Below are positions 2,692 to 63,776 of a DNA stretch of 64,000 nt, piece after piece. Origin of the DNA: an uncultured Candidatus Saccharibacteria bacterium. GTDB lineage: Bacteria > Patescibacteriota > Doudnabacteria > UBA920. The stretch's first letter is position 1. Each line of letters starts with the position of its first letter. The notes beneath the pieces are model-generated. The model saw only the letters and a list, made by a program, of their open reading frames with translations. It ran no database searches and had not been told where the DNA came from. Location of the stretch: the NCBI GenBank assembly GCA_964532005.1, contig CAZHER010000001.1:55502-119501 (forward strand). The letters are read 5' to 3'. The translations under genes and the position numbers were made by a program.

Positions 2692-2701
2692 GATATTGTA
2701 A

Positions 2702-4000: not shown

Positions 4001-4003
4001 AAT

Positions 4004-4762: not shown

Positions 4763-4788
4763 TTTTATGGTATAATTGAGGGGAAGAT

Positions 4789-5247
4789 ATGCAATATAAT
4801 GTTCCCCAATTTACTGATGTAGAAGACAAGCTGGTAGCCGGCTTGGGATTTAAGCAGTTTGGGATCTTGTTCGGAGTAGGGGTCCTGATGTTTTTAACTT
4901 GGAACATTACAAAAAGCGTAGCTTTGCTAATTATTGTTGGCGTATTTTTAGGACTTCCTGCTTTGGCCATAGTGTTTATTAAGGTTAACGGGCGTCCTTT
5001 ATACAATTCGTTGTTTGCCTTGGCAGGTTCCGCTTTTGAAGCAAAACATTTTGTTTTTCACAAGCAGGGCATGACGTTGGCCGAAAATAAAGAGACTGCG
5101 GTAATTAAAGAAGAGACGCCAGCCCAAGCCACTGGCACGGCAATGGTAAGAATAAAACAGCTAAATTATTTGTTACAGCAACAAGCATCAGAAGAACAAC
5201 TGCTCATTCAACATATAGCAGATGGAAACAAAACAAAAGAAACATAA
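4789..5247 (+). CDS. PrgI/TcpE-family (VirB3-like) small membrane protein
   Basis: About 150 aa with two adjacent TM helices (GILFGVGVLMFLTW... LLIIVGVFLGLPALAIVFI) directly upstream of VirB4. It has the size, topology and position of PrgI/VirB3. RBS GAGGGGA sits upstream of the ATG. Confidence 0.55.
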   Translation: MQYNVPQFTDVEDKLVAGLGFKQFGILFGVGVLMFLTWNITKSVALLIIVGVFLGLPALAIVFIKVNGRPLYNSLFALAGSAFEAKHFVFHKQGMTLAENKETAVIKEETPAQATGTAMVRIKQLNYLLQQQASEEQLLIQHIADGNKTKET

Positions 5248-5911
5248 TAAATCCGTAAATCCGACCCAGTCGTTTTTACGTACCAAAGAGATCAAAGGGG
5301 ACACCATGATCATGGATGACGGTACTTTGCGTGCTGTTTTAGCCGTGTCCTCAACTAATTTTGATCTGAAAAGTCAGAGCGAGCAAGATGCACTAATTTT
5401 TGCGTACCAAAGATTTTTAAATTCATTAGACTTTTCCATTCAAATATTAATGCAAAGCAGGCGAATGGATATCGCCAGTTATACCGAAAAGATTAAGGAT
5501 ATAATGGAGAAACAAACCAATGAATTGCTTCGGATGCAAACCGCAGAATATATTGAATTCGTTAACCGCTTGGTGGAAACTGGAAATATCATGAACAAGA
5601 ATTTTTATTGCATTATTTCGTATAATGAAAGTATTGGATCTGACAAGGTGGGGTTTTTTGCATCGTTATTTACTAAAAGCCGAGCCAAGGCCATTGCCCA
5701 AAGAGAAGCCAATTTTGAACACCATAAAGCAATGTTGGAAGAACGGGTGACCAGCGTTTCCAGCAATCTCAATGGCATGGGCTTGCGTGCTGTGAAACTC
5801 AACACAGAGCAGATAATAGAGTTGATTTATAACTCATATAATTTTGAATCAGCTCCACAGATCGATGCCAGCCAGCTGGAAAATGTCACTTTAACAGAAG
5901 AAACAAAATAA
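5222..5911 (+). CDS. VirB4/TrbE-family N-terminal domain, encoded as a separate ORF (split VirB4)
   Basis: The segment DGTLRAVLAVSSTNFDLKSQSEQDALIFAYQRFLNSLDFSIQI resembles the N-terminal region of VirB4/TraC/TrbE. Its stop lies 1 nt before the ATG of the ATPase ORF, in a different frame. Confidence 0.55.
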   Translation: METKQKKHNKSVNPTQSFLRTKEIKGDTMIMDDGTLRAVLAVSSTNFDLKSQSEQDALIFAYQRFLNSLDFSIQILMQSRRMDIASYTEKIKDIMEKQTNELLRMQTAEYIEFVNRLVETGNIMNKNFYCIISYNESIGSDKVGFFASLFTKSRAKAIAQREANFEHHKAMLEERVTSVSSNLNGMGLRAVKLNTEQIIELIYNSYNFESAPQIDASQLENVTLTEETK

Positions 5912-5912
5912 A

Positions 5913-7754
5913 ATGGGATTATTTGATTTAAACGAAGAACAATTAAAGAAAAAGAAAGAAGAGCTGGGAAAGCTGAAGGGAACTCTGGATGAGAATGCCC
6001 GTCTGGCTGAAGTGGAAAAGAACTACCGAGAAGGGCTCACTACGTTAAAAGATCTACTGGCCCCTTCGGCTTTACATTTTGAAAGCAACAGGTTTCAGCT
6101 GAACAACAAGTATGCCAGAACTTTTTTCGTGCTCGCATATCCCAGAATGCTTTCTACTAACTGGCTGTCCTTTATTATCAACTCTGAGGGTGAGTTGGAT
6201 GTATCAATGTTTATTTACCCGATTGACTCAGCTGTTATTTTAAAAAAACTTAAGTCAAAAGTTGGAGAAATCGGTTCACAAATAAGCATAAACCAGGAAA
6301 AAGGAATGGTCAGGGATCCAATGCTGGAAACGGCGTATAAAGATGTCGAAAGCTTGCGCGATGACCTTTCGCAAGGCACAGAAAAATATTTCCGCTTCGC
6401 TTTATATTTCACTATTTATGCAGAAGATGAAAAGGAATTGGAGAAAAATTCTACAATCTTAGAAAGCTCCCTTGGCGCTAAACTTGTTGTCACCAAGAGG
6501 GCATTGTTTCAGACCGAGGCCGGGTTTAACTCCTCTTTACCTCTTGGGCTAGATGAATTGGACATTGCAAACAATTTAAATACCTCGCCGCTGTCCACAA
6601 CATTTCCCTTTGTATCTTCCGATTTAACAGGAAATGACGGAATTTTGTACGGAATAAACAGACACAACAACAGTTTGATTCTGTTTGATCGGTTTAAAAT
6701 GGAAAATGCGAACTTTGTTGTTTTTGCAAAATCTGGTGCTGGAAAATCATATGCTATTAAGCTCGAAGTTTTGCGTTCATTAATGGTAGGTACTGAAGTT
6801 ATTATAATTGACCCAGAAAATGAGTATAAGCATTTGTCCGACGCAGTGGGAGGCACCTACTTAGGAATTTCGCTAAACTCCGACTTCCGCATTAACCCTT
6901 TTGACCTGCCATCTGCAATAGAAGACGAAGATACCGCAGATATTTTACGCAGCGGCATTATTAACCTATTAGGCTTGTTTAACCTCATTCTAGGCAAGCT
7001 AGACCCTACAGAAGAGGCTCTGTTGGACAAGGCCCTATGGCAGACGTATGCTAAAAAAGACATCACTGAAGCTAGCGATTTACGCACTGTAGAGCCTCCT
7101 GTGATGGCAGATCTTATTGAAGTTTTGAACGATATAGTTGGGGCGGAAAGCTTGTCTCAGCGGTTGACCAAATTTACTGAGGGGACTTTTGCGGGACTGC
7201 TAAACCAACCAACTAATGTTACCTTAAACAATCAGTTGCTTACTTTTTCTATACGCGACTTGGAAGAAGAACTTCGCCCTATTGCTATGTATATTATTTT
7301 GGGGCATATATGGAACTTGGTTAGAAGCGAATTAAAGCGCCGAATTTTGGTTTTGGACGAAGCTTGGATTATGATGCAACACGAAGATTCCGCCAGGTTT
7401 GTATTTGGAATTGCCAAGAGATGTAGAAAGTATTATTTAGGACTGACCACCATAACCCAGGACGTAGCTGACTTTATGAGCAGCCCGTATGGTAAGCCGA
7501 TCGTGACGAACTCATCTATCCAGCTTCTATTAAAGCAAAGCCCGGCAGCTATCGAGGTTATTGCTGAAACATTTTTCCTAACCGAAGGAGAAAAATATTT
7601 GCTTCTGGAAAGCGAAGTCGGCGAAGGTATCTTCTTCGCCGGCCTAAAGCACGCCGCTATTAAAATATACGGCTCATACGTAGAGGACCAGATTATCACA
7701 ACAGATCCAAAACAGCTCTTGGAGATTAAGCAGAGCAAAGAAGAGGTAATTTAA
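5913..7754 (+). CDS. virB4: VirB4-like type IV secretion ATPase (C-terminal ATPase domain)
   Basis: Walker A FAKSGAGKSYAIK and Walker B RILVLDEAWIMMQ. Overall VirB4/TraE-like organisation. Confidence 0.8.
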   Translation: MGLFDLNEEQLKKKKEELGKLKGTLDENARLAEVEKNYREGLTTLKDLLAPSALHFESNRFQLNNKYARTFFVLAYPRMLSTNWLSFIINSEGELDVSMFIYPIDSAVILKKLKSKVGEIGSQISINQEKGMVRDPMLETAYKDVESLRDDLSQGTEKYFRFALYFTIYAEDEKELEKNSTILESSLGAKLVVTKRALFQTEAGFNSSLPLGLDELDIANNLNTSPLSTTFPFVSSDLTGNDGILYGINRHNNSLILFDRFKMENANFVVFAKSGAGKSYAIKLEVLRSLMVGTEVIIIDPENEYKHLSDAVGGTYLGISLNSDFRINPFDLPSAIEDEDTADILRSGIINLLGLFNLILGKLDPTEEALLDKALWQTYAKKDITEASDLRTVEPPVMADLIEVLNDIVGAESLSQRLTKFTEGTFAGLLNQPTNVTLNNQLLTFSIRDLEEELRPIAMYIILGHIWNLVRSELKRRILVLDEAWIMMQHEDSARFVFGIAKRCRKYYLGLTTITQDVADFMSSPYGKPIVTNSSIQLLLKQSPAAIEVIAETFFLTEGEKYLLLESEVGEGIFFAGLKHAAIKIYGSYVEDQIITTDPKQLLEIKQSKEEVI

Positions 7755-52847: not shown

Positions 52848-53192
52848 GTGGCAAAGAAAGTTGCCAAGAGTGCAAAGAAAAAAGTTCTTGCAGTAAAAAT
52901 TGAGCAACCCCCGACAATCTGCAAGGAACTGAAAATACAGGTTTACGCCCTGAATTGGATACGTGTAGAACGCCTGTTTCGCAAGAACAGCCATAGCCCA
53001 AAGGCAGAGTGGAAAGGAAAGAATATTTCCATTTTGGCAATTGAAGGTTATGGTCGCCGCCGCGACAGAATCAGACAGGATAAAACCATCACAGAGTCAG
53101 TCCGCCGAGCTAAGATCTACGATCTAGAGAAAGCCCTGGACCGGTTTGTGATAAACTACACCTGCTATATGGGCAAGTTAATCTGTAAGTAG
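52848..53192 (+). CDS. small basic hypothetical protein (GTG start)
   Basis: AGGAGG RBS 8 nt upstream of the GTG. 114 aa, Lys/Arg-rich. Followed by a hairpin plus T-run near 53204-53250. Confidence 0.45.
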   Translation: MAKKVAKSAKKKVLAVKIEQPPTICKELKIQVYALNWIRVERLFRKNSHSPKAEWKGKNISILAIEGYGRRRDRIRQDKTITESVRRAKIYDLEKALDRFVINYTCYMGKLICK

Positions 53193-53668: not shown

Positions 53669-53700
53669 GACCTCCTGAATAAGGAGGTCTTTGTTTACTT
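53669..53700. terminator. bidirectional rho-independent terminator between rplU (+) and the GT2 gene (-)
   Basis: Perfect 10-bp stem aaagacctcc/ggaggtcttt with a 7-nt loop, flanked by A-run and T-run. Confidence 0.7.
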
Positions 53701-54600
53701 GCTAATAGACTTGTCGGTTTTAAAATGGTTCACAACCAGCTTCAACCAATATCTAGACCAGATTCCCAAATATACAAAAATAGTCATCAGAAGATTGGAC
53801 TTATGTCTGTAATGTTTATTGTAGTAGATCCACATGGCGTTGTGAAAATGGTATAGTGCAAATTTGGAAGCCTTTTTAGAAGACTGGCCTTTGTAGTGGT
53901 AGGAATAAGTTTTAGGGTAGTACCAAATTTTGTATCCTGCTTTGCGAGTTCTGTAGCAAAGATCTACATCTTCGCCGTACATAAAAAAATCTTCATCAAA
54001 TCCGCCAACTCTGCGGTAGCATTCGCGGGATATCATCATATATGCTCCAACAATGCAGTCAACTTGAGTTTCTTGGTCAACGTGTTTGTTTAGCACATTG
54101 TAAGCCCCAAACTTTTTCGGAAATAAATATTGCAATCCCGATAGTCTGTAGAAAGCAACTTTTGGGTTTGGTTCGCTACGTCTGGAGGCCCAGTCAATTT
54201 CTCCGTTGGCTTTAATGAGCTTACAGGAGGACATACCAATATTGGGATGGGCTTTCATGAAATCAACCATAACCTGGAAGATGTCTTCGGCAAGTTTTGT
54301 GTCTGGGTTCAATAGCAATAGGTAGTCGCCTTTAGCTATTGCCATCCCTTTGTTATTGCCTTTGCCAAACCCTTCATTTGTATTTTCAATAAGGGTAGTT
54401 TTTTCAGCAATTTCAGGGTTGCTTAAATACTGTTCGCGAATCATTTCTAGCGTTCCGTCGCGCGAGTCATTGTCCACTATTATTACTTCATAATTGTATT
54501 GTGTTTTAGACGCATAGACAGCATCCAAAGTGACGCGCATTTCGTCTTTAGCGCGGTAGGGAACTATGATAATTGACAGGTCGATATGTTTTGGATCCAT
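53695..54600 (-). CDS. family-2 glycosyltransferase
   Basis: GT-A N-terminus (IIIVPYRA...) and the DXD-like IIVDNDSRDGT. Confidence 0.75.
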   Translation of the reverse strand: MDPKHIDLSIIIVPYRAKDEMRVTLDAVYASKTQYNYEVIIVDNDSRDGTLEMIREQYLSNPEIAEKTTLIENTNEGFGKGNNKGMAIAKGDYLLLLNPDTKLAEDIFQVMVDFMKAHPNIGMSSCKLIKANGEIDWASRRSEPNPKVAFYRLSGLQYLFPKKFGAYNVLNKHVDQETQVDCIVGAYMMISRECYRRVGGFDEDFFMYGEDVDLCYRTRKAGYKIWYYPKTYSYHYKGQSSKKASKFALYHFHNAMWIYYNKHYRHKSNLLMTIFVYLGIWSRYWLKLVVNHFKTDKSISK

Positions 54601-54615
54601 AACAGTAATTTAATA

Positions 54616-55617
54616 TTATGTAAATAATTTGGCTAATTCAGTTTTTGAAATTTTACGGTTTTGGGCTATGGCTTTTCTTTTTCTCCACATTACCGGAAGT
54701 TGCTTGAGCATTTCCGGTATGGCAGCCAAAGTTGAAGTTTCAAAAAATAAAATAAATGCATGCATTGCCAGTTCTCGGATGAAGAATTGTGGATAAAACC
54801 AAGGCGTATTTTTTAAAAACAGGAATATATGGTTTTTATAGTTTAGTTTGCGCACCCGCGGATTTATGGATTTGTGAAATTTTAGGAATGAGAAAAATTT
54901 TTTATACCCACCTGGGCTGGAGCCAGCGGCGCGGCCATGGTAGGCCACGGCTTTGGGAACAAAAGCACATTTCCATCCAGCATTTGTCATACGAAAACCT
55001 AGGTCCACATCTTCCCAGTAAGAATGAAAATCTTCGTCATAGTATTCAAACCGGCCGTCCTCGCGCTTGAATTTCACATCTTCCAAAGCTGACTTTCGAT
55101 ACATTGGACCTGCTCCAGATACTGCAACTACAGAAATTTGGTTGTCATACTGGCCATCATCAACTTCATGTTGTCCTCTGTCCCGTCCGCGGCCCGATTT
55201 AGAATACACAACACCAGTGGTATCTATTATATTTAGAGGTTTATTGTTTTCAAAATCATAACGCAGAAGTTTGCCGGTTGCAGCCCCGACCTTAGGGTCT
55301 GCCCCGAACACTTTTAGCATTTCTTCTACGTATGTTGGTGTCATTATCAGGTCCGGATTAACCAGTTGGAAGAATTCAGAATTACTTTGTGCAAAATATT
55401 CATTGTGCCCGCGCGAGAAACCTATGTTGTATCCAGGGTCTATTATCTTTACCTGTGGAAAATGTTCTTTTATGTATTCTTTGCTGTTGTCGTCATTTCC
55501 AGCAATAACTGCAACGAATTCCGTGTCTTTGTAGGTTTGGTTGAGAGCTGCGGTAAAGACCGGCTGAATAAATTTTATACTGTTATACACAACTTGTATT
55601 AAGGTAACTCTGGGCAT
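54616..55617 (-). CDS. family-2 glycosyltransferase (possible rhamnosyltransferase, given rfb linkage)
   Basis: GT-A fold motifs (VTLIQVVYNS..., DDN, YYDEDF/EDVD). Confidence 0.65.
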   Translation of the reverse strand: MPRVTLIQVVYNSIKFIQPVFTAALNQTYKDTEFVAVIAGNDDNSKEYIKEHFPQVKIIDPGYNIGFSRGHNEYFAQSNSEFFQLVNPDLIMTPTYVEEMLKVFGADPKVGAATGKLLRYDFENNKPLNIIDTTGVVYSKSGRGRDRGQHEVDDGQYDNQISVVAVSGAGPMYRKSALEDVKFKREDGRFEYYDEDFHSYWEDVDLGFRMTNAGWKCAFVPKAVAYHGRAAGSSPGGYKKFFSFLKFHKSINPRVRKLNYKNHIFLFLKNTPWFYPQFFIRELAMHAFILFFETSTLAAIPEMLKQLPVMWRKRKAIAQNRKISKTELAKLFT

Positions 55618-55725
55618 AAAAATACTTAATTTAGCTTAATTATAGCAAAATTTGACTCAAAAAAAAGCAGGACAAACTGTGGGAGTTTGTCCGTACTTTA
55701 CCTGCTTTGTGCAGCATGAAATCAA

Positions 55726-56382
55726 TCAGACGCGGAACAGGGCAAATGCCAAGCATTCTGCAAGGTGTGGGTTGACATCGCCTTTGGTAAGAGCGATGTA
55801 CAGGTCGGCGAACGAAGCCCAAAATTCGTTATTGAGATTGCCGCCCTTGTAGGCATTAACCTCTTTTTTCTTGTATAGAACGCCGATCCGATTGGTTTTG
55901 TTGTGGTAACGCCCGCCATCTGCAGGCATAATACCCCAACTCACCCATTCGTTCCCATAGAGTTCTGCTCGCGGTGGCAGTTTGCCACCATGTGCTGCTC
56001 TCAAGTTGCTTTCGCTTGCCTGAAGAGTTGGACCAAGCAGAATGTGGTTTTTGTCGTAAGGGTTTCCCGGCTCTTCACGGGCGGTTACCAGACAGTGATG
56101 CCCATCTGTTACGAGAACCAGCACCCCTGGACCAGTCGTATCTTCCAGCATCGGCTGGTTCCACTCTGCAACTTCTCGGCTCCCGGTCTGGACATAAAAC
56201 CCTGCCAAGCGGAAAAACTTTCCATCGCTTCGGCTGTATTCCCACCGTCCGTCGTTGTTTCTGTATGCCCACGGCTCAATACCATCGAGCGAGCCTGGGC
56301 TTACAACCATTGTTGAATTGGCTCTTTGTTCTTCGAGCCATTTTTCCAATTGTGTTTTCATTATTACTGCAATTTCCTCCAA
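55726..56382 (-). CDS. single-domain NDP-hexose 2,3-dehydratase-like protein (Hexose_dehydrat family), GC-rich, likely horizontally acquired
   Basis: The motif REEPGNPYDKNHILLGPTLQASESNL resembles the conserved K/RxEPGN...PT.Q...SN core of EvaA/TylX3-type dehydratases. Local GC is well above neighbours. The start could instead be the ATG at 56361 (GGAGG upstream). Confidence 0.45.
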   Translation of the reverse strand: MEEIAVIMKTQLEKWLEEQRANSTMVVSPGSLDGIEPWAYRNNDGRWEYSRSDGKFFRLAGFYVQTGSREVAEWNQPMLEDTTGPGVLVLVTDGHHCLVTAREEPGNPYDKNHILLGPTLQASESNLRAAHGGKLPPRAELYGNEWVSWGIMPADGGRYHNKTNRIGVLYKKKEVNAYKGGNLNNEFWASFADLYIALTKGDVNPHLAECLAFALFRV

Positions 56383-56550
56383 ATGTTCTTTGTATTTACT
56401 TTACCCAAACCAAACTCAGGCTTGGGTTAAGCAGGCAGTTTTAAAAAGCAAAACTGGCTAAAAATTATCTCACAAAATATCTGTTTTGTCAACTCTGTGA
56501 GTCGTAGTTGTTGGTTAAAATAAATCTAAAATCTTGCTATAATTAACATT

Positions 56551-57567
56551 ATGAAATTACTTGTTACCGGTGCAGCCGGATTCATTGGTTCAAATTTTGC
56601 AAGGTATTGGGCAGAAAATTATCCTCAAGACGAAATGGTGGTTTTAGACAAGCTTACCTATGCAGGCAATCGCGCCAATCTAGAACCACAACCCCAAAAT
56701 CATACTTTTATTGAAGGCGATATTGCCGACGAAGCCATTGTAAGAAGGGCCATGCAAGGTTGTGATACTGTAGTCCATTTTGCCGCCGAAAGTCATGTCG
56801 ACCGAAGTATTACCGATCCTTATGTTTTTACGCGCACCAATGTGCTCGGAACCAATGTTTTACTCGAAGTAGCCAGACAGCTAGGTGTTAAAAGATTTCA
56901 TCATGTTTCAACCGATGAAGTTTTTGGAGCGATTCCTTTGGACCAAGCAGTTAAATTTAACGAAACCACCCCATACGACCCGAGCAGCGCTTACTCTGCC
57001 AGTAAAGCAGGAAGCGACCATTTAGTGCGTGCATATAGCAGAACATATGGTTTACCAGTTACCATAAGCAACTGTACTAACAATTATGGTCCTTACATGT
57101 ATCCAGAAAAATTTATACCGCGATCCATTATCCGGTTGCTTAATGGAGAAAATGTTCGATTGTATGCTCCAGGAAATCAAGTTCGCGACTGGTTGTTTGT
57201 CCGTGACCACTGTCGGGCCATTGACTTGATTTTGCAAAAAGGAAAAGTTGGTGAAACTTACTGCATCGGCGGGATGACCCAAGAAATTACCAACAAGCAA
57301 GTGGCAGAAACTATTATTCGTCTCATGGGTTTGCCAGAAAACAGGCTGGAAATGATTACCGACCGTCCTGGTCATGACGAAAAATATGCGTTGGACTGGA
57401 GCAAAATTAACACCGAACTTGATTGGAAACCAGAATACGACTTTGAGGCCGGCCTCAAAGAAACAATAGGTTGGTACACTAATAACCGCCAATGGTGGGA
57501 AGAAACTGCCCGAGAAAGCGAACAGTTTTACCAGAAAAAAGGCGAAGCTGTTATAGAACAAAAATAA
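56551..57567 (+). CDS. rfbB: dTDP-glucose 4,6-dehydratase
   Basis: GAAGFIGS Rossmann motif. YxxxK (YSASK). Typical 338-aa length. Confidence 0.9.
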   Translation: MKLLVTGAAGFIGSNFARYWAENYPQDEMVVLDKLTYAGNRANLEPQPQNHTFIEGDIADEAIVRRAMQGCDTVVHFAAESHVDRSITDPYVFTRTNVLGTNVLLEVARQLGVKRFHHVSTDEVFGAIPLDQAVKFNETTPYDPSSAYSASKAGSDHLVRAYSRTYGLPVTISNCTNNYGPYMYPEKFIPRSIIRLLNGENVRLYAPGNQVRDWLFVRDHCRAIDLILQKGKVGETYCIGGMTQEITNKQVAETIIRLMGLPENRLEMITDRPGHDEKYALDWSKINTELDWKPEYDFEAGLKETIGWYTNNRQWWEETARESEQFYQKKGEAVIEQK

Positions 57568-57577
57568 TTTTTTAGAA

Positions 57578-58144
57578 ATGAAAGAAGAAAATTCACAACC
57601 GGAAGATTTTATTACCAACACCGAACTTCAAGATGTATTGGTAATTTCCAGGCCAACATTTCCAGATGACCGCGGATTTTTCCGTGAGTCTTTCCGCAAA
57701 GCCGACTTGGAAGCCCGTCTAGGGGAAGCGGTGGAATTTGTTCAGGCCAACCATTCAAGGTCAGTAAAAAATACTTTGCGCGGGGTTCATATTGCTCCAT
57801 GGCATAAACTGGTAAGTGTAACGCGAGGTGAAGTGCAGGCGGTAATTGTAGATGCCCGTCCAGACTCACCGACTTTTGGCAAACATTTTTCTTTGGTGAT
57901 AGGCGACTCTAACCGGTCTTCGATATTTATTCCAGCTGGGTGTGGCAACTCATTTGCAGTTTTAAGCGACGAAGCAGACTATACATATTTAACAACTGAC
58001 TATTGGGCTCCAGGAAAAGAGCACAGCGTAAAATATAATGATCCAGACTTGGCAATACCTTGGCAAATCACAGAGCCCGTTGTGTCTGACCGCGACCAGT
58101 CATGCCCGTCTTTGCGCGAAGTATATCCCGATAAATTCAAATAA
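57578..58144 (+). CDS. rfbC: dTDP-4-dehydrorhamnose 3,5-epimerase
   Basis: Cupin-like RmlC sequence (RGVHIAPWHKLVSVTRGEV...), 188 aa. Confidence 0.85.
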   Translation: MKEENSQPEDFITNTELQDVLVISRPTFPDDRGFFRESFRKADLEARLGEAVEFVQANHSRSVKNTLRGVHIAPWHKLVSVTRGEVQAVIVDARPDSPTFGKHFSLVIGDSNRSSIFIPAGCGNSFAVLSDEADYTYLTTDYWAPGKEHSVKYNDPDLAIPWQITEPVVSDRDQSCPSLREVYPDKFK

Positions 58145-58148
58145 ACTA

Positions 58149-59072
58149 ATGAATAAAATTTCCGAAACAGGAGACAATTCTGTAATTTTGGGAGCTCATG
58201 GGACTTTGGGGCAGCAGCTGGCCAAAGTTTTTCCCAAAGCCTTGACTTTTGATCGGGCCGAGCTTGATGTAACCGATTTTTCAGCAGTGCGCGAAAAACT
58301 TTCCACAATCCCAAACTTGGCAACTGTTTTTAACTGTGTTGCATGGAATGATGTAGATGGTGCAGAAACCAATCGCGACGGAGCTTTTTTGTTAAATGAA
58401 ACTGTGCCTCGGTATTTAGCTGAAATATGTAAAGATTTAGGCGCCACACTTGTACATTACAGTACCGGCTTTGTTTTCGATGGCACAGAAGAAAGTTATA
58501 AAGAAGATGCACAGCCGAAGCCCCTTTCTGTCTACGCGGAGTCTAAATATAAAGGGGAACAGGCAGTAATAAATTCCGGAGCTGATTACTACTTAATTCG
58601 GACCAATGTTTTGTTTGGACCGAAGGGGAAAAGTGACGCCAGCAAACCGGCTTTTGTAGATATTATGATCGGCCTCAGCAAAAAAACCAACTTAATTAAA
58701 GTTGTGGAGGACGAAGTATATAGTATAACCTATGCTCCCGATCTGGCTTCAACAACTAAAAATTTGTTGCTCGAACAAAAGCCAGTAGGTGTTTATCATA
58801 TTGTAAACTCGGGTTATGCCAGTTGGTACGGCTTGGCCACGGAAATTTTTACAAAGCTCGGCTTTACCATTAGCACCACAGCTCCTGCCGAAGGCACGGA
58901 CACAACCCCCGATGGAAAGCATATTGCTTTATTGCCCGTTGCAGGAAAAGAATTTCCCCGACCGGCCAAGCGTCCTGCCAAAGTGGTTTTAGAAAACACC
59001 AAACTGCCCAGTTTGCGCATGTGGCAGGAAGCTTTGGCAGAATATTTATCAACTAACAATAGCAATTCTTAA
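58149..59072 (+). CDS. rfbD: dTDP-4-dehydrorhamnose reductase
   Basis: RmlD-like Rossmann protein. Start taken at the ATG at 58149, just after the rfbC stop. Confidence 0.8.
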   Translation: MNKISETGDNSVILGAHGTLGQQLAKVFPKALTFDRAELDVTDFSAVREKLSTIPNLATVFNCVAWNDVDGAETNRDGAFLLNETVPRYLAEICKDLGATLVHYSTGFVFDGTEESYKEDAQPKPLSVYAESKYKGEQAVINSGADYYLIRTNVLFGPKGKSDASKPAFVDIMIGLSKKTNLIKVVEDEVYSITYAPDLASTTKNLLLEQKPVGVYHIVNSGYASWYGLATEIFTKLGFTISTTAPAEGTDTTPDGKHIALLPVAGKEFPRPAKRPAKVVLENTKLPSLRMWQEALAEYLSTNNSNS

Positions 59073-59077
59073 TTTTT

Positions 59078-59830
59078 ATGAAAGGCATCATTCTCTCTGG
59101 CGGTGCAGGCACCAGGTTATTCCCGCTCACCAAGGTAACTTCAAAACAACTTTTGCCGATTTATGACAAACCGATGATTTATTATCCATTGGAAAAGTTG
59201 ATAAACGCAGGGATAAAAGAAATTTTGATCATAGTTGCACCAGACCATTGCGGCGATTATATGCGCGTTTTAGGCAGTGGCAAAGATTTTGGTCCGGGCG
59301 TTCGTTTTACTTACGAAATTCAAGACAAGCCCGAAGGCCTAGCCCAGGCTTTTATAATTGCAGAAAACTTTTTGGATGATGGCGACAGCTCAACTTTAAT
59401 TTTAGGGGACAATATTTTTGATGATGAAATTGTTGATGCTGTAAAAAACTTTGAGTCTGGGGCAACAATCTTTGTCACTAAAGTCCCCAAGGAAGATTTA
59501 ACCAGATTAGGCAATGTTGTTTTAGACAAAGATTGGAATGTGTTGGACATAGAAGAGAAACCCAAAAACCCGCGGTCGCCTTATGCCCAGCCGGGGATTT
59601 ATATCTATGATAATCAGGTAGTGGAAGCGGCCAAAAGTTTGAAGCCATCGGCAAGGGGAGAACTGGAAATAACCGACTTAAATAATTGGTATCGAACCAA
59701 TAGCAAGTTGAAAGCAGTTGAACTAAAAGGAACTTGGATAGATGCCGGTACTATAGATGCATATTTTGAAGCCAATTCCTGGGCTTACAAAAAATCCAAA
59801 TCAGATTTGGCCGCTAAAGGCTTAAGCTAG
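59078..59830 (+). CDS. rfbA: glucose-1-phosphate thymidylyltransferase (short form)
   Basis: GGAGTRLFPLT nucleotidyltransferase motif. 250 aa. Confidence 0.85.
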   Translation: MKGIILSGGAGTRLFPLTKVTSKQLLPIYDKPMIYYPLEKLINAGIKEILIIVAPDHCGDYMRVLGSGKDFGPGVRFTYEIQDKPEGLAQAFIIAENFLDDGDSSTLILGDNIFDDEIVDAVKNFESGATIFVTKVPKEDLTRLGNVVLDKDWNVLDIEEKPKNPRSPYAQPGIYIYDNQVVEAAKSLKPSARGELEITDLNNWYRTNSKLKAVELKGTWIDAGTIDAYFEANSWAYKKSKSDLAAKGLS

Positions 59831-59865
59831 AAAAAACCCCCAAAAATAGGGTATTAACCAAGGAC

Positions 59866-59894
59866 TTGACAAAAAGTCATTTTTGTGTTAATAT
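59866..59894 (+). promoter_or_regulatory. consensus-like sigma70 promoter (TTGACA-17-TAATAT) overlapped by a 9-bp inverted repeat
   Basis: ttgaca at 59866-59871, a 17-nt spacer and taatat at 59889-59894. The inverted repeat gtcattttt (59876-59884) / aaaaatgac (59907-59915) and a direct repeat aaagtcat flank the -10. Confidence 0.5.
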
Positions 59895-59945
59895 ATAAAG
59901 TCATATAAAAATGACACTTATAAATTACCCATTATATTAAATTTT

Positions 59946-61376
59946 ATGACCAATAACGTATCAAACAAGCAGAAAATAGAGTTCACTCCGGAAACGGCAG
60001 CTATGTTTGGCGTATCTGAGCACAAAGAAGCTACCCCAATAGATACAGAAACCATGGTTCCTGCTAATCTGCCAATCATCGATGCTGTGGGCACTACCGA
60101 AAAAAGCGAAGTTGCCGAACTGGCTGAATTGCCACATGAAAACCTTGATATGGAAGAAATCCAGCCAATTCCAGAGACTCCAGCTAATTCAAATTCAAAA
60201 GCTCGCGCAATATATATTGCCAAGTCCGTGGCGCCATATTTGGGAATTTTTCTTGTTGGTATTTTCTTGTATCAATACTTTTTTTCCGATTTTTCAGTAG
60301 GTAGTTTTATCAAAACCAACGACACTGCTACTGTTACCCAAACACAAGCCGAAGTCAACGAACGTTTGGTTGCGCTGAAGCAGGAAAAAGCTGGTGAATA
60401 CGCTAAGTGGATCAAGCAATTCTTTTATGAAGTTACAGATCCCGCAGTGATAGAAATGGACAATGATATTTCCGGCAACGGCTTGACTAATTTTGAAAAG
60501 TTCATGCTGAACTTAAACCCAAAGGCATATGACACTTTGGGGCTGGGTCAACCAGATGGACAAACAGTAATGGATGGAACTAACCCTTGGACCGGTAAAC
60601 CGATGACGGACAATCAGAAAAAAATTGTTGAACTATATTTTGACAGACAACTGATTTCTAACCGTCTTGCTGCAGGTAGTTTAAAGCTTGCTCAAAATAG
60701 TATTGCCAACGCCAGCGGTTCTCCAAACAACAACGGCTATGAAAATCCAAGTAACTATTCTTTTGTCGATGGCACGGGTACGGTGGGTGCAACTAATTCA
60801 GCTTCTAGTTCAGGCGGTGGTCAAGTTGCCGGAACTTACACCAACCAACCCCAGCAGATCTTGGGAACTTCTTCAACAGGATCTACGAGTACCGGTCAGG
60901 GAAGCGCTTTGCAGGGGCTGGATATTAACGCAGACATAGCCGGAGAGCTAAGCATTCCAGCAAATGGGATTAAAGCCCCTTTGGTTTTCACTAAGGACAC
61001 GAAGAATTTTGAATCTGATCTGACCAAAGGTGTGGTTCATTACCCTGGAACTGCAATGCCCGGTTCGGTAGGAACAGCATATATATCCGGCCACTCAAGT
61101 GGATATTCTTGGCAACGTAATGCATACAAAAATATTTTCCGCGGTTTGAACAATGTTAAAGATGGAACTTCATTTACCATTACAGTTACTTTAAAAGATA
61201 ATCGCAAAGCGACTATTCATTACGTGGTCCAGACCAGAAAAGAGTTTGCTCCAAATGACCAAGCTCAGTTTGTGCAAACTGCCGAGGCCAGAGTAGCTTT
61301 ATCTACTTGTTGGCCACTGGATACAACTTCTCGTCGTTTGGTTCTGTTTGCAAAACAGACCCAGGTAAGCTTCTAA
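59946..61376 (+). CDS. sortase-family transpeptidase with a long N-terminal extension and membrane anchor
   Basis: The C-terminal domain carries catalytic-triad-like H (YISGHSSG), C (ALSTCWP) and R (TSRRLV). N-terminal TM helix (LGIFLVGIFLY). Confidence 0.6.
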   Translation: MTNNVSNKQKIEFTPETAAMFGVSEHKEATPIDTETMVPANLPIIDAVGTTEKSEVAELAELPHENLDMEEIQPIPETPANSNSKARAIYIAKSVAPYLGIFLVGIFLYQYFFSDFSVGSFIKTNDTATVTQTQAEVNERLVALKQEKAGEYAKWIKQFFYEVTDPAVIEMDNDISGNGLTNFEKFMLNLNPKAYDTLGLGQPDGQTVMDGTNPWTGKPMTDNQKKIVELYFDRQLISNRLAAGSLKLAQNSIANASGSPNNNGYENPSNYSFVDGTGTVGATNSASSSGGGQVAGTYTNQPQQILGTSSTGSTSTGQGSALQGLDINADIAGELSIPANGIKAPLVFTKDTKNFESDLTKGVVHYPGTAMPGSVGTAYISGHSSGYSWQRNAYKNIFRGLNNVKDGTSFTITVTLKDNRKATIHYVVQTRKEFAPNDQAQFVQTAEARVALSTCWPLDTTSRRLVLFAKQTQVSF

Positions 61377-61530: not shown

Positions 61531-61767
61531 TCATGGTTGAAAAGGGCAGAATTCAGGTTTTACAAGGGTTTCGGGTAGATTTTTGGCCAACTTCCTTAAG
61601 GAAATGGACAGAAATGTGCCCGGCATTCGCGCCGCGGCCTATACGTGTAGGCCGTGAGCGCAAGCTCAACGGCACGTAAGATATAAACGTTAACAGCAAA
61701 ACGTTTCTGGTTTTTTGACAAAGATGACCAATGCTGAGGTCGTCAGATGGATTGGAGGATCCAAAAA
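61531..61767 (+). promoter_or_regulatory. long (~240 nt) GC-rich structured 5' leader with an internal terminator-like hairpin (candidate attenuator/riboswitch, class unknown)
   Basis: Lies between the consensus promoter and the RBS/ATG at 61768. Contains the hairpin cggccta-tacgtg-taggccg. A 7-bp hairpin aaacgtt/aacgttt (61685-61706) is followed by ctgg and T6. Confidence 0.35.
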
Positions 61768-62565
61768 ATGAAAAAATTTTTCGCAACAATCGTAACATTG
61801 GCAATCGTTCTGTCTTTATTCGTTCCAGCCGTCGCACAGCGCGGTGGCACAGCTTCCGCGAAGACCTTTTTGGGTCAGGAAAAAAACGTTTCGATTCGGG
61901 TTGCCGGAGGCTTTGCCGATGGTAATTTGACCCGCCGTTTAGCGGCACAGGAATATCGAATGAAGTCAGGTAGCAAATGGGCGTTTACTGCTGAGGGTGA
62001 CGGCGAGGACTTTGTCATCGTCATTACCTGCAAGATTGTGAAGAATGGGTCGAGAACCCAGACGGACAATTTGCAGAAGGCAGTGAATAAGAACGCACGG
62101 GAGGAGATCAATCAGACGCGCCGGGCGACAGGCGAAGCAAAAGAAAACCTTCGCCGAAACATACCCCGTGGTCCTAACGGAATTCTCCGCGACCTCGGTG
62201 GCGAGCTAGGCGGTATCTGGATTGAACGGCAAGGCAACAAAAGAATTCAGCAACAGGAAGACAGGATGCAGTCGGATCGCTTTTCACAAGAACGCAATGA
62301 CGTAATTGTCACCGTTCAGTGGATCGTTCCGGGAACAACAAAGCCGACTCATGAATGGGTTGGTAGCGGTGTTTTACATCGTGGTACCCGTGACGAATTC
62401 GGGATTATTAAGACCAAAATCGCCGACAACACGTTGGCTGAAGATGGTCTGCCAGAAGGAACGGTCATAACTGACCGGTCCTATCAGGGCATTGCCGAGA
62501 TCGCTTTCAAAAGAGCAATCAAAGAAGAAGGCGGATCTTTCCCAAATCAAACAATCGGACGGTGA
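61768..62565 (+). CDS. secreted hypothetical protein (signal peptide), GC-rich, likely horizontally acquired
   Basis: GGAGG RBS 10 nt upstream of the ATG at 61768. Signal-peptide-like MKKFFATIVTLAIVLSLFVPAVA. Much higher GC3 than flanking genes. Confidence 0.55.
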   Translation: MKKFFATIVTLAIVLSLFVPAVAQRGGTASAKTFLGQEKNVSIRVAGGFADGNLTRRLAAQEYRMKSGSKWAFTAEGDGEDFVIVITCKIVKNGSRTQTDNLQKAVNKNAREEINQTRRATGEAKENLRRNIPRGPNGILRDLGGELGGIWIERQGNKRIQQQEDRMQSDRFSQERNDVIVTVQWIVPGTTKPTHEWVGSGVLHRGTRDEFGIIKTKIADNTLAEDGLPEGTVITDRSYQGIAEIAFKRAIKEEGGSFPNQTIGR

Positions 62566-62597
62566 CCGCCGTCCCAAACCACAGACTAGGAGATTAT

Positions 62598-63776
62598 ATG
62601 AAACAGATGAAACTAAGGGCGGTCATCACGATGTTGACTGCTTGGGCAATCGTTATGTCGTCGCTTTCGCCACTTATGGTGCGCGAGGTGTCGGCTCAGA
62701 CCAAGACTGCCGTCGTTGAAGGCGAGTTAGATCTAAATAAACTCAGAAAACTCAGCCCAGATGACCCGGCATACTACCGTTCGCCGAACGTGCGTTTTCT
62801 CTCAATGAATTTTAACAAGGCACAACGCGCGGATTTCACTTACCTTGTCGGTTCTTCGCCGCAGATTCGGGGTGGTGCAAAAACACAACCTCAAGCTGAC
62901 GAAGAGGATGTTCCGAACGACCGCGTTCGGGATATTGAGACAATGTCTAAGGGCATGACACTTTCCATTGTGAAATTGCCGACAGAAATGCCGGTTCGCG
63001 ATGCGGAAGGAAAGATTGTCCGTGCAAACGGCAAGGTTGTCATGGAACCAGTTATGGTTCGCCAAAAGAAAGGTTCGGGACAGTTACTCATGGTTTTGAA
63101 GTGTGCCAATTGGTCACGAGAGGTCGGATATGATCCGATCCCACCTCAACCAATTGACAACACCTGTAGAGACTTTAACCCAAACCCCACCCCGACGGCG
63201 AATCGAAACGATAAAGGTGAGATCATTTCCTATTCTTACGACTTCGGCTGTGGCAATAAAGCTACAGTCGCCGTTGAAGTGAGAAAAGAGAAAGAGGTTT
63301 GCAATTGCACTCCTGGGTCTTACACACCCACTCTTTTCAATCGCGGGAAGGGGGATGAAACCGCTAACGTGTCAAACATTGCCTCAATGAAGGAGTTGAA
63401 GAGCAGCCCTGCCTTTACGGTTAAGGAAGCTCTGATAGCTCGTTTCGGCGAAGCGACCATGACGAACGGCAAAGACAAGGATTGGGAGTTAATTCTCCGA
63501 GAAATGGATAAGTTCAAGCAAGGCATCGCAGATGTCCGGCTGAAATATTTATATCTTGAAGTTGACCTTTGTCCGACCGCGGCGGGAACGAACAATGTTC
63601 TCTTTCACGCCATTGCCGATGACGATCAGCCGCCGATCGTTAAAAAGCGGAATTGGGGAAAGATCCTTAAATGGGTCATTCCGATTATCGTCACGGTGGC
63701 GATAATTCTCATTGTGCGGGGTGGTGGAGGTTTGAAAAAGCCGATACCTATTCCACCGAGAATCACACCTCCGTGA
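62598..63776 (+). CDS. secreted Cys-rich hypothetical protein with signal peptide and C-terminal TM anchor, GC-rich
   Basis: AGGAG RBS upstream of the ATG at 62598. Signal peptide (MKLRAVITMLTAWAIVMSSLSPLM). About 10 Cys. C-terminal helix VIPIIVTVAIILIV followed by RGGGG. Confidence 0.55.
   Translation: MKQMKLRAVITMLTAWAIVMSSLSPLMVREVSAQTKTAVVEGELDLNKLRKLSPDDPAYYRSPNVRFLSMNFNKAQRADFTYLVGSSPQIRGGAKTQPQADEEDVPNDRVRDIETMSKGMTLSIVKLPTEMPVRDAEGKIVRANGKVVMEPVMVRQKKGSGQLLMVLKCANWSREVGYDPIPPQPIDNTCRDFNPNPTPTANRNDKGEIISYSYDFGCGNKATVAVEVRKEKEVCNCTPGSYTPTLFNRGKGDETANVSNIASMKELKSSPAFTVKEALIARFGEATMTNGKDKDWELILREMDKFKQGIADVRLKYLYLEVDLCPTAAGTNNVLFHAIADDDQPPIVKKRNWGKILKWVIPIIVTVAIILIVRGGGGLKKPIPIPPRITPP

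What the first reader, a model, noticed from the sequence alone, without database searches (positions are those of the whole stretch)
55640..56460. GC-rich, single-domain NDP-hexose 2,3-dehydratase-like gene divergent from rfbBCDA
Canonical EvaA/TylX3/OleV dehydratases are ~470-aa two-domain proteins from high-GC actinomycetes that make 2,6-dideoxysugars. Here a ~210-aa single-domain version with the EPGN/PT-Q core motif sits head-to-head with the dTDP-rhamnose operon. Its GC content is clearly above the genome background, and long antisense ORFs appear on the opposite strand. That suggests recent horizontal acquisition and a possible modified deoxysugar (dideoxy-hexose) in the glycan made by this locus.
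Basis: partly seen in the sequence, partly recalled or inferred. Interest (0 to 1): 0.55.

Follow-up and report, generated by a model that had tools for sequence, protein, structure and literature searches.

The report
Half-size sugar 2,3-dehydratase gene in CPR
A real, conserved 211-residue "half" version of the sugar 2,3-dehydratases known from antibiotic pathways sits beside the rhamnose genes of an uncultured ultrasmall (Patescibacteria) bacterium; it belongs to an uncharacterised single-domain branch that looks like the form before the gene duplication, and it is old in this lineage, not a recent import.

Summary
Window 55726-56361 (-) encodes a 211-aa protein with one Pfam Hexose_dehydrat domain (E 4e-24). 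It is divergent from rmlB-C-D-A and is the most GC-rich of 55 ORFs (50.7% vs 41.2%).

The host is a Patescibacteria/CPR genome. The protein belongs to a distinct single-domain clade of at least 51 clusters at 50% identity. This clade lies outside both halves of the ~470-aa EvaA-type enzymes. It keeps residues that those enzymes conserve only in the N half or only in the C half.

In 12 loci the gene usually lies among NDP-6-deoxyhexose genes and GT2 glycosyltransferases. In all 10 loci checked it has its own promoter and terminator.

Most likely it is a homodimeric 2,3-dehydratase acting on RmlB's product. This is inferred. EvaA's second catalytic Glu is not conserved in position, and the window has no 3-ketoreductase.

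"Recent HGT" is not supported. Syntenic orthologues at 84% and 62% identity exist, with saturated synonymous sites in the flanking genes. The GC excess recurs in 9 of 12 single-domain loci and in none of 22 other loci (mostly two-domain), and it is unexplained. The antisense ORFs are not conserved.

Verdict: a new variant of a known kind, of moderate interest.

The parts
55726..56361 (-). CDS of the single-domain NDP-hexose 2,3-dehydratase-like protein (211 aa; an alternative TTG start at 56382 gives 218 aa)
   Evidence: ORF list. Pfam PF03559, 85.5 bits, one domain. Identical 211-aa public gene call P0001. EvaA is the only PDB sequence hit. AF2 model pLDDT 93 matches EvaA with TMq 0.66-0.72. 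dN/dS 0.10 vs the L002 orthologue.
56464..56492 (-). Sigma-70-type promoter of the dehydratase gene (TTGACA, 17 nt, TG-n-GATAAT)
   Evidence: 11 of 12 consensus match with extended -10. Both hexamers are invariant in L002 and L003. A TTGACA-type promoter at a similar distance is seen upstream of the gene in all 10 loci inspected. This is a consensus match only; the transcription start is not shown.
56362..56458 (-). Predicted ~97-nt 5' leader
   Evidence: Inferred from the promoter position. It folds with z -1.68, not significant. No Rfam match at E<=1. The 5' hairpin is retained in L002 and L003, read by eye.
55662..55692 (-). Intrinsic-terminator-like hairpin plus T-run between the dehydratase gene and the first GT2 gene
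   Evidence: 9-bp stem GGACAAACT/AGTTTGTCC followed by TGCTTTTTTT. An equivalent hairpin plus T-run follows the gene in all 10 loci inspected.
56551..57567 (+). rmlB (dTDP-glucose 4,6-dehydratase), presumed supplier of the substrate
   Evidence: PF16363 1.8e-79 and PF01370 3.5e-66. Same arrangement in L001-L004.
57578..58144 (+). rmlC (dTDP-4-dehydrorhamnose 3,5-epimerase)
   Evidence: PF00908 1e-53.
58149..59072 (+). rmlD (dTDP-4-dehydrorhamnose reductase); start placed at the Met that gives the 307-aa product called in L002
   Evidence: PF04321 1.1e-62. 307-aa orthologue in L002.
59078..59830 (+). rmlA (glucose-1-phosphate thymidylyltransferase)
   Evidence: PF00483 2.5e-59.
54616..55617 (-). 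GT2 glycosyltransferase a, first gene downstream on the same strand
   Evidence: PF00535 and PF13641. 66% identical to an L092 GT2 and 27-29% to GT2s next to the dehydratase gene in L086 and L005.
53695..54600 (-). GT2 glycosyltransferase b
   Evidence: PF00535 1.4e-20. 31-32% identical to the GT2 immediately downstream of the dehydratase gene in L086, L091 and L005.

Best explanation
SHOWN.
- The gene encodes a complete, selectively maintained 211-aa protein made of one EvaA-type (Nudix-fold) NDP-hexose 2,3-dehydratase domain.
- The genome is a Patescibacteria/CPR genome.
- The protein belongs to a distinct clade of single-domain proteins. This clade is equidistant from the N- and C-terminal halves of the classical ~470-aa enzymes.
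- The clade retains residues that the two-domain enzymes conserve in only one half or the other.
- The gene is a separate transcription unit with its own promoter, leader and terminator, inside a conserved cell-surface glycan module: rmlBCDA (or other NDP-6-deoxyhexose genes) plus two GT2 transferases.
- It was already at this position in the common ancestor of at least three lineages.

INFERRED.
- The protein acts as a homodimer that reproduces the pseudo-dimer formed by EvaA's two domains. It would have two equivalent active pockets instead of one live and one vestigial pocket.
- It takes dTDP-4-keto-6-deoxy-D-glucose from the adjacent RmlB.
- Using the invariant Glu97 (EvaA Glu139) and a nearby acid (Asp148), it removes the C2 hydroxyl to give a 3,4-diketo-2,6-dideoxy intermediate.
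- This diverts part of the rhamnose pathway to a 2-deoxygenated sugar that the downstream GT2 enzymes place in an envelope glycan.
- The high GC content marks an old foreign origin or a gene-specific pressure, not a recent transfer.
For: Family and fold.
- Pfam PF03559, 85.5 bits.
- PDB sequence search hits only EvaA, with both of its domains.
- The AF2 model (pLDDT 93.1) has EvaA as best Foldseek hit, E 1e-9, TMq 0.66-0.72, TMt 0.33-0.35, i.e. it covers one half of EvaA. The next hits are the Nudix NDP-sugar hydrolases GDP-mannose hydrolase and ADP-ribose pyrophosphatase.

A real single-domain clade.
- Of the 150 best representatives in an exhaustive search, 51 full-length proteins of 195-250 aa carry one domain, against 94 with two.
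- They are monophyletic in an NJ tree.
- hhalign scores: S-N 287, S-C 275, N-C 431.
- The window protein scores 91 bits on the N-half HMM and 86 bits on the C-half HMM.

Residues.
- Glu97 (= EvaA E139, essential according to PMC8987622) is invariant in 51/51.
- Q114, N119, H124, G126 and K155 are shared only with N halves.
- R62, E63, V64 and G150 are shared only with C halves.

Constraint.
- dN/dS is 0.10 vs L002.

Context in 12 loci.
- A 4,6-dehydratase gene lies near the gene in 6 loci (window, L001-L004, L086, L092).
- Across the loci, other recurrent neighbours are RmlD-like reductases, sugar-1-P nucleotidyltransferases and GT2s.
- An FdtA-like ketoisomerase follows the gene in L087.
- A GFO_IDH_MocA reductase, a DegT aminotransferase and a formyltransferase follow it in L115.

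Other.
- Own promoter and terminator in 10/10 loci.
- Old residence in the lineage.
- Host identity: ProRS is 68-69% identical to Candidatus Doudnabacteria proteins, and named single-domain homologues come from Patescibacteria and Magasanikbacteria.
Against: - No activity has been measured for any single-domain member.
- EvaA's second essential residue, E190, aligns with Ala147 in this protein and with Gln in most of the clade, both in MAFFT and in profile-profile alignments. The invariant Asp148 sits one position later. Only the pairwise HMMER alignment puts Asp on E190.
- His at position 44, conserved in both halves of the two-domain enzymes, is Arg in the clade.
- No canonical 3-ketoreductase (GFO_IDH_MocA or aldo-keto reductase) or 3-aminotransferase is encoded in the 64-kb window. 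The fate of an unstable 3,4-diketo product is therefore unexplained.
- The tree is NJ with midpoint rooting, and the search profile was built from single-domain sequences.
- Two loci (L089, L116) show no sugar context.
Confidence: 0.55

Rival explanations
1. The protein keeps the EvaA-type NDP-sugar-binding fold but does something other than 2,3-dehydration. It might perform another transformation of, or simply bind or sense, dTDP-4-keto-6-deoxyhexose and so tune flux between rhamnose synthesis and the GT2 enzymes.
For: - The EvaA E190 position is Ala here and Gln in most of the clade.
- There are clade-specific substitutions at positions conserved in both halves of the two-domain enzymes: H44R, Y/F131R, F/Y179E.
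- No 3-ketoreductase or aminotransferase is in the window.
- It is expressed from its own strong promoter and insulated by a terminator, as a regulator might be.
Against: - Glu97, N119, the HGG motif and K155 of the catalytic N half are invariant or nearly so.
- An invariant acid (D148) lies next to the E190 column.
- A deep single-domain subclade sits directly upstream of a GFO_IDH_MocA reductase and a DegT aminotransferase, the classical partners of a true 2,3-dehydratase.
- A hydrolase role is unlikely. PF00293 is not matched, and read directly from the sequence only E-x-G remains of the Nudix box.
Confidence: 0.25
2. The gene is one half of a split enzyme. Its partner half is encoded elsewhere, and the two form a heterodimer equivalent to EvaA.
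For: The protein has only one domain, while EvaA needs two. Only 64 kb of the genome could be examined.
Against: - A six-frame search of the window with single-domain, N-half and C-half HMMs finds only this gene; the next best hit has E 0.22.
- None of the 12 loci has a second PF03559 gene.
- The protein is equidistant from N and C halves and carries the conserved residues of both.
Confidence: 0.05
3. The gene is a truncated, decaying remnant of a two-domain dehydratase.
For: It is half the canonical length and has atypical composition.
Against: - Length is uniform at about 205-230 aa across at least 51 clusters, and the profile is covered end to end.
- dN/dS is 0.10.
- The promoter and terminator are conserved.
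- The confident compact fold has pLDDT 93.
Confidence: 0.02
4. On the composition only: the GC excess is the un-ameliorated trace of horizontal transfer from a high-GC donor. The transfer would be ancient in this lineage, with further transfers in other lineages.
For: - GC1, GC2 and GC3 are all raised.
- Many clade members have GARP-rich, FYMINK-poor compositions typical of high-GC proteomes.
- One member sits in a 56-64% GC contig (L090). Others, with GC3 of 0.74-0.90, sit in roughly 40-46% GC flanks (L005, L089, L091). L089 lies 200 nt from a tRNA gene.
- Three loci show no excess (L086, L115, L116), as expected if transfer histories differ.
- A rough decay estimate allows an ancestral GC3 of about 0.7-0.95 (my arithmetic).
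Against: - No high-GC donor carrying a close relative was found in GTDB representatives or JGI metagenomes. These were motif-limited scans.
- The excess is confined to the CDS.
- L002 has lower flank GC3 than the window but higher GC3 in this gene.
- dS of this gene (0.95) is lower than that of its neighbours (1.6 to saturated) while dN is not, which hints at constraint on synonymous sites.
- Two other genes of the locus (61747-63776) are also persistently GC-rich in all three relatives.
Confidence: 0.5
5. On the composition only: the GC excess results from recent horizontal acquisition by this particular genome.
For: The gene has the highest GC of 55 ORFs, and the composition changes sharply at its boundaries.
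Against: - Orthologues occupy the identical slot in L002 (84%) and L003/L004 (62%).
- Flanking genes are 82-98% and 66-88% identical.
- Four-fold sites are near saturation.
Confidence: 0.03

Closest known systems
EvaA (Amycolatopsis orientalis; PDB 4J7G/4J7H) and the other characterised dTDP-4-keto-6-deoxyglucose 2,3-dehydratases (TylX3, OleV, Gra-orf27, SpnO, UrdS)
   Same: - Same Pfam family, PF03559.
- Same Nudix-like fold: best Foldseek hit, TMq up to 0.72.
- The EPGN Glu (EvaA E139) and the PT-QA-SN and HGG motifs are retained.
- It lies next to the 4,6-dehydratase that makes the substrate.
   Different: - One domain of 211 aa instead of two tandem domains of about 470 aa.
- It lies outside both half-clades.
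- The E190 position is not acidic; an Asp sits one residue later.
- It is in a primary cell-surface glycan locus of a CPR bacterium, not a secondary-metabolite cluster.
- No 3-ketoreductase is nearby.
- According to the review PMC8987622, only EvaA is well characterised, and its second pocket is a relic of a gene duplication.
Homodimeric Nudix NDP-sugar hydrolases (E. coli GDP-mannose hydrolase YffH, PDB 3O52/3O69; ADP-ribose pyrophosphatases, PDB 1V8I/1G0S)
   Same: They are single Nudix-fold domains of about 150-200 aa that bind nucleoside-diphosphate sugars. They are the next-best structural matches, TMq 0.41-0.52. That they form dimers with sites built from both subunits is from my own knowledge. 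It is the model for how a single-domain dehydratase could work.
   Different: No PF00293 match, and the Nudix box is not retained (sequence read directly). Sequence identity is only 7-15%. Hydrolysis is therefore not expected.
Database entries 'NDP-hexose 2,3-dehydratase family protein' from Patescibacteria and Candidatus Magasanikbacteria MAGs
   Same: They are members of the same single-domain clade (P0018 at 38% identity, P0165 at 37%) and already carry this automatic name.
   Different: They are names only. No NCBIfam model matches. The full-text searches run here found no paper on single-domain members.

Membership tests
NDP-hexose 2,3-dehydratase family (Pfam PF03559, EvaA type) | Significant match to the family profile above the curated threshold | tested here: met
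   85.5 bits vs a cut-off of 25, E 4.4e-24. EvaA is the only PDB sequence hit, E 4.9e-18.
NDP-hexose 2,3-dehydratase family (Pfam PF03559, EvaA type) | Nudix-like fold of an EvaA domain | tested here: met
   AF2 model pLDDT 93.1. Foldseek top four hits are EvaA chains, E 1e-9, TMq 0.66-0.72, rmsd 3.2-5.5 A.
NDP-hexose 2,3-dehydratase family (Pfam PF03559, EvaA type) | Two tandem domains in one ~470-aa chain (one active pocket, one relic pocket) | tested here: not met
   One domain in 211 aa. No second copy in six frames of the window or in the 12 loci examined.
NDP-hexose 2,3-dehydratase family (Pfam PF03559, EvaA type) | Catalytic Glu of the EPGN motif (EvaA E139; mutation abolishes activity, PMC8987622) | tested here: met
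   Glu97 aligns with E139. It is invariant in 51 single-domain proteins, 94/94 N halves and 84/94 C halves.
NDP-hexose 2,3-dehydratase family (Pfam PF03559, EvaA type) | Second catalytic Glu (EvaA E190) | tested here: inconclusive
   In MAFFT and hhalign alignments the E190 column (Glu in 94/94 N halves) is Ala147 here and Gln in 29/51 of the clade. Asp148 (49/51) is one position later. Pairwise HMMER aligns Asp148 with E190. The geometry could not be inspected.
NDP-hexose 2,3-dehydratase family (Pfam PF03559, EvaA type) | Genomic coupling to an NDP-glucose 4,6-dehydratase that supplies the 4-keto-6-deoxy substrate | tested here: met
   rmlB is divergent at 189 bp. A 4,6-dehydratase gene lies close to the gene in 6 of 12 loci (window, L001-L004, L086, L092). 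L090 has an RmlD-like reductase and a sugar-1-P nucleotidyltransferase but no 4,6-dehydratase in the 4.2 kb held.
NDP-hexose 2,3-dehydratase family (Pfam PF03559, EvaA type) | Downstream partner that captures the 3-keto product (GFO_IDH_MocA or aldo-keto 3-ketoreductase, or 3-aminotransferase) | tested here: not met
   None among the ORFs of the 64-kb window scanned with Pfam. Such partners are present next to a member of a deep subclade in L115. The rest of the genome was not available.
NDP-hexose 2,3-dehydratase family (Pfam PF03559, EvaA type) | Conversion of dTDP-4-keto-6-deoxy-D-glucose to dTDP-3,4-diketo-2,6-dideoxy-D-glucose | not testable with these tools
   Needs an enzyme assay.
Canonical Nudix hydrolases (PF00293) | Nudix box GX5EX7REUXEEXGU with the metal-binding Glu cluster | tested here: not met
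   No PF00293 hit at E<=0.01. Read directly from the sequence, only E97-P-G99 remains in TAREEPGN, and E96 is variable in the clade.
Canonical Nudix hydrolases (PF00293) | Homodimer with composite substrate sites | not testable with these tools

The most novel reading that the evidence does not exclude
The single-domain clade is the surviving pre-duplication form of sugar 2,3-dehydratases. It would be a symmetric homodimer with two live active sites, widespread in Patescibacteria. There it would make a 2-deoxygenated 6-deoxyhexose for primary cell-envelope glycans rather than for antibiotics. Its persistently high GC in low-GC genomes would be maintained by a gene-specific pressure on synonymous sites and would not be a relic of transfer.
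Probability: 0.2. Interest if true: 0.65.

Novelty: new variant of a known kind. Interest (0 to 1): 0.45.

Why it matters
Sugar 2,3-dehydratases are the gateway to 2,6-dideoxy and trideoxy sugars of antibiotics. Only EvaA is well characterised, and its second, dead pocket was read as the scar of a gene duplication.

A natural single-domain branch that keeps the conserved residues of both halves would give three things:
- a direct test of that evolutionary story;
- a smaller, symmetric scaffold for glyco-engineering;
- a hint that ultrasmall CPR bacteria decorate their envelopes with 2-deoxygenated rhamnose-pathway sugars. The surface chemistry of these bacteria matters for attachment to hosts and is almost unknown.

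The recurrent GC-rich island formed by this one gene is a small but clean puzzle for anyone who uses composition as evidence of HGT.

Tried and rejected
1. Antisense ORFs as a second gene. Synonymous shuffles and orthologues show they are not conserved.
2. Partner half-gene. None in six frames of the window.
3. Riboswitch or leader RNA. No Rfam match at E<=1 in 55600-56560 and nothing near the gene in nine loci. The leader fold has z -1.68.
4. Homodimer modelling with a linker-fused alignment.
5. Finding close relatives and the organism in GTDB representative genomes and JGI metagenomes. Motif scans returned mostly two-domain relatives, none above 39% identity. They were still useful as a control for GC offset.
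6. Broader alignments for locus scans were rejected as too divergent.
7. Polarising synonymous changes with L003 as outgroup. There were too few informative sites in the gene: 3 and 8 changes.
9. The original EvaA paper (PMID 23473392) is not held. The catalytic residues are taken from the review PMC8987622. The pocket-B residue numbers given in that review (E352, D353) do not fit my count of the chain, so I did not use them.
10. NCBIfam has no model for the protein.
Full report
**1. Observation**

The ORF list shows a minus-strand ORF at 55726..56382, 218 aa from a TTG.
- The public gene call for the identical protein (P0001, 211 aa) and the orthologues P0002 and P0003 start at the Met encoded at 56361.
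- A GGAGG lies 14 nt upstream of that ATG. I therefore take 55726-56361 as the CDS.
- Pfam gives a single Hexose_dehydrat (PF03559) match: E 4.4e-24, 85.5 bits against a cut-off of 25, covering profile positions 3-181 of 203.
- NCBIfam has no model for it.
- On the other strand, across a 189-bp spacer, lie rmlB, rmlC, rmlD and rmlA, all with strong Pfam matches.
- Downstream on the same strand are two GT2 glycosyltransferase genes.

- The gene has the highest GC of 55 crude ORF calls: 50.7% vs a mean of 41.2%, z 3.2.
- Its GC3 of 0.518, against a mean of 0.387 (z 2.9), is joint second highest.
- The rise is confined to the CDS.

The two long antisense ORFs exist.
- One frame is longer than synonymous shuffles predict in the window (P 0.009).
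- It collapses to 59 and 57 codons in the 84% and 62% orthologues.
- The antisense ORFs are therefore a by-product of GC richness plus chance.

**2. Host and setting**

The window is ordinary chromosome. It carries aminoacyl-tRNA synthetases, MreB/MreC/PBP2, GreA, RRF, GatA/B, ClpB, RecG and type IV secretion-like genes.
- Its prolyl-tRNA synthetase is 90% identical to that of the L002 genome.
- It is 68-69% identical to proteins named Candidatus Doudnabacteria. Further hits are named Patescibacteria, Yanofskybacteria and Paceibacteria.
- The host is therefore a Patescibacteria (CPR) bacterium.

The gene lies in a glycan region. This holds two PMT_2-type transferases, a large GT2-like protein, a WecA-like GT4, the two GT2s, rmlBCDA and a sortase.

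**3. The family**

A word-based search found only 12 relatives, all single-domain.

An exhaustive profile search of 1.84 billion representatives found 1435 family members at E<=0.001.
- Among the best 150, 51 full-length proteins of 195-250 aa have one domain and 94 have two.
- The single-domain proteins (S) form one clade in an NJ tree, apart from both the N halves and the C halves of the two-domain proteins.
- Profile-profile scores agree: S-N 287, S-C 275, N-C 431.
- The window protein scores almost equally on the N-half HMM (91 bits) and the C-half HMM (86 bits).

Column by column:
- The S clade shares Q114, N119, H124, G126, K155 and P98 with N halves only.
- It shares R62, E63, V64 and G150 with C halves only.
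- It has some residues of its own, for example Arg44 where both halves have His, plus Arg131, Glu179 and His199.

A protein derived from a modern N half or a modern C half should lack one of the two shared sets. The simplest reading is that the S lineage separated before the two halves specialised. This is an inference from an NJ tree and conservation patterns, not a rooted likelihood analysis.

Named members of the clade are 'NDP-hexose 2,3-dehydratase family protein' from Patescibacteria and Candidatus Magasanikbacteria. The architecture is therefore already in the databases under an automatic name. I found no paper dealing with single-domain members.

**4. Structure and catalytic residues**

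- With 29 homologues the AF2 model reaches pLDDT 93.1 and pTM 0.88.
- Foldseek against the PDB puts the four EvaA chains first: E about 1e-9, TMq 0.66-0.72, TMt 0.33-0.35, i.e. half of EvaA.
- Next come GDP-mannose hydrolase and ADP-ribose pyrophosphatases, with TMq 0.41-0.52.
- According to the review PMC8987622, EvaA has two pockets. Pocket A is active and pocket B is a relic of a gene duplication. E139A and E190A abolish activity.
- E139 is the Glu of EPGN. It aligns with Glu97, which is invariant.
- E190 is less clear. Pairwise HMMER aligns it with Asp148. MAFFT and hhalign place Ala147 (Gln in most of the clade) in the E190 column and the invariant Asp148 one residue later, where N halves have Gln and C halves have an invariant Glu.
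- The Nudix box is not retained and PF00293 is not matched. A pyrophosphatase activity is therefore unlikely.

**5. Genomic context**

I examined 12 loci with single-domain genes.
- L001-L004 reproduce the window arrangement: rmlB, divergent from dehydratase-GT2-GT2.
- L092 is a more distant relative (neighbours 47-66% identical, dehydratase 40%). It has the gene beside L21, rmlA, rmlD, an rmlB-rmlC fusion and the same two GT2s.
- L086, a named Patescibacteria MAG, has a 4,6-dehydratase, an RmlD-like reductase, an HD protein, the dehydratase, four GT2s and a sugar-1-P nucleotidyltransferase, all on one strand.
- L005 and L091 are similar.
- L090 has the dehydratase, an RmlD-like reductase and a nucleotidyltransferase.
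- In L087 the gene is followed by an FdtA-like 3,4-ketoisomerase.
- In L115, from a deep 255-262-aa subclade, it is followed by a GFO_IDH_MocA reductase, DegT aminotransferase fragments and a formyltransferase fragment. These are the classical partners of a true 2,3-dehydratase.
- L089 and L116 show no sugar genes.

The window's two GT2s are the closest matches (27-32% identity) of two GT2s in the run immediately downstream of the dehydratase gene in L086 and L005, and of the single GT2 held in L091.

Guilt by association with NDP-4-keto-6-deoxyhexose chemistry is thus strong. However, the 64-kb window contains no 3-ketoreductase or aminotransferase.

**6. Expression unit**

- A near-consensus promoter (TTGACA, 17 nt, TG-n-GATAAT; 11/12 match) lies about 100 nt upstream of the start.
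- A hairpin plus T-run follows the stop.
- The promoter hexamers are invariant in L002 and L003.
- Reading the flanks of ten loci, every one has a TTGACA-type promoter 60-130 nt upstream and a terminator-like hairpin downstream. Several also have a terminator just before the promoter.
- The neighbouring genes are tightly packed, so the gene is consistently an insulated monocistronic unit.
- No Rfam family matches the leader, and its fold is not exceptional.

**7. Age and composition**

Age in this lineage:
- Between the window and L002 or L003, the dehydratase is 84% or 62% identical. The neighbours are 82-98% or 66-88% identical.
- Four-fold sites of the neighbours are only 31-51% identical, and dS is 1.6 to saturated.
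- The gene was therefore in place before these lineages split, and 'recent acquisition' is not tenable.
- It is under purifying selection (dN/dS 0.10) and is the fastest-evolving protein of the cluster.

The GC excess is not peculiar to this genome. It is present in nine of 12 single-domain loci. Values are the dehydratase gene vs its neighbours:

| Locus | GC % | GC3 |
|---|---|---|
| window | 50.7 vs 41.2 | 0.52 vs 0.39 |
| L002 | 51.6 vs 41.0 | 0.57 vs 0.35 |
| L003 | 49.2 vs 41.8 | 0.45 vs 0.34 |
| L005 | 64.8 vs 44.5 | 0.79 vs 0.45 |
| L087 | 52.8 vs 40.6 | 0.52 vs 0.38 |
| L089 | 61.3 vs 40.4 | 0.74 vs 0.39 |
| L090 | 69.4 vs 56-64 | 0.91 vs 0.74-0.81 |
| L091 | 69.6 vs 43-46 | 0.90 vs 0.40-0.51 |
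| L092 | 48.1 vs 34-42 | 0.47 vs 0.32-0.43 |

- The excess is absent in L086, L115 and L116.
- The 22 other homologue loci (mostly two-domain), on contigs of 27-74% GC, show offsets of only -0.05 to +0.05.

An old transfer from a donor with GC3 near 0.9, with slow amelioration and further transfers, can just about account for the numbers. Evidence on that side:
- the high-GC-like amino-acid composition of many members;
- the tRNA gene next to the gene in L089.

Evidence pointing instead to a gene-specific pressure:
- the lower dS of this gene (0.95) compared with its neighbours;
- the higher GC3 in L002 despite its lower background;
- two other persistently GC-rich genes in the same locus;
- the absence of any identified donor.

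I could not separate the two explanations, because polarised substitution counts were too few.

**8. Verdict**

- The feature is real and the annotation 'single-domain 2,3-dehydratase-like' is right.
- The best-supported mechanism is a homodimeric, EvaA-like dehydration of RmlB's product, feeding the adjacent GT2s. I put this at roughly 0.55, because the second catalytic residue and the downstream reductase are unresolved.
- The HGT reading is wrong as to timing and open as to cause.
- Relative to what is known, this is a new variant of a known enzyme kind. It is already auto-annotated but uncharacterised, and it has a credible claim to represent the pre-duplication form.

Noticed in passing
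window 61747-62565 and 62562-63776 (+); L002 580-2591; L003 204-2145: Two ORFs downstream of the sortase gene have signal-peptide-like N-termini, and one has a C-terminal membrane anchor. They have no Pfam match. They are also GC-rich (49-50% GC, GC3 0.51-0.53) and stay GC-rich in both relatives. The dehydratase gene is therefore not the only persistent GC-rich gene in this locus.
   Followed up: partly
L002, L003, L005, L086, L087, L089, L090, L091, L092 (flanks of the dehydratase gene) and window 55662-56492: In all ten loci inspected, the single-domain gene has its own TTGACA-type promoter 60-130 nt upstream and its own terminator hairpin, amid otherwise tightly packed genes. Several loci also have a terminator just upstream of the promoter.
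   Followed up: partly
L089 7726-7800: A tRNA gene ends about 200 nt upstream of a very GC-rich copy of the gene (61% vs 40%). The contig has no sugar genes but does have a PAS-GGDEF-EAL protein. This looks like an island insertion site.
   Followed up: no
L115 5494-9009: A 258-aa single-domain member is followed by a GFO_IDH_MocA reductase, DegT aminotransferase fragments and a formyltransferase fragment. This resembles a 3-amino or 3-keto deoxysugar pathway. The contig has about 1x coverage and several genes look frameshifted.
   Followed up: no
L087 8809-10487: In a Magasanikbacteria-type locus the gene is followed by an FdtA-like cupin (3,4-ketoisomerase family) and a protein with an MJ0043_C domain.
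   Followed up: no
L092 4273-5967: An apparent RmlB-RmlC fusion protein of 564 aa: 4,6-dehydratase plus 3,5-epimerase domains in one product.
   Followed up: no
window 56515-56551 (+): The promoter-like site for rmlB (TTAAAA, 17 nt, TATAAT, with TG) ends 8 nt before the rmlB ATG. This would give a leaderless or nearly leaderless mRNA.
   Followed up: no
window 52-7754 (+): A type IV secretion-like gene set: a TrbL/VirB6-like 879-aa protein, a PrgI-family protein and a VirB4/TraG-like ATPase. It is followed by a 687-aa protein with a C-terminal M15 D-Ala-D-Ala peptidase domain.
   Followed up: no
window 56420-56458 (-); L002 and L003 equivalents: A hairpin at the predicted 5' end of the dehydratase mRNA is retained in the three relatives. 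One position is mismatched in the window and paired in L002, read by eye. Three sequences are too few to test covariation.
   Followed up: partly
window vs L002/L003, genes 54616-61376: At conserved four-fold sites of the flanking genes the window has GC 0.41, against 0.29 in L002 and 0.21 in L003. Parsimony assigns 60 AT-to-GC but only 9 GC-to-AT changes to the window branch. The window genome seems to be drifting to higher GC than its relatives.
   Followed up: no
window 52848-53192 (+): A 114-aa lysine- and arginine-rich ORF upstream of rplU has GC3 0.518 and no family match. A 114-aa gene is called at the same place in L002.
   Followed up: no
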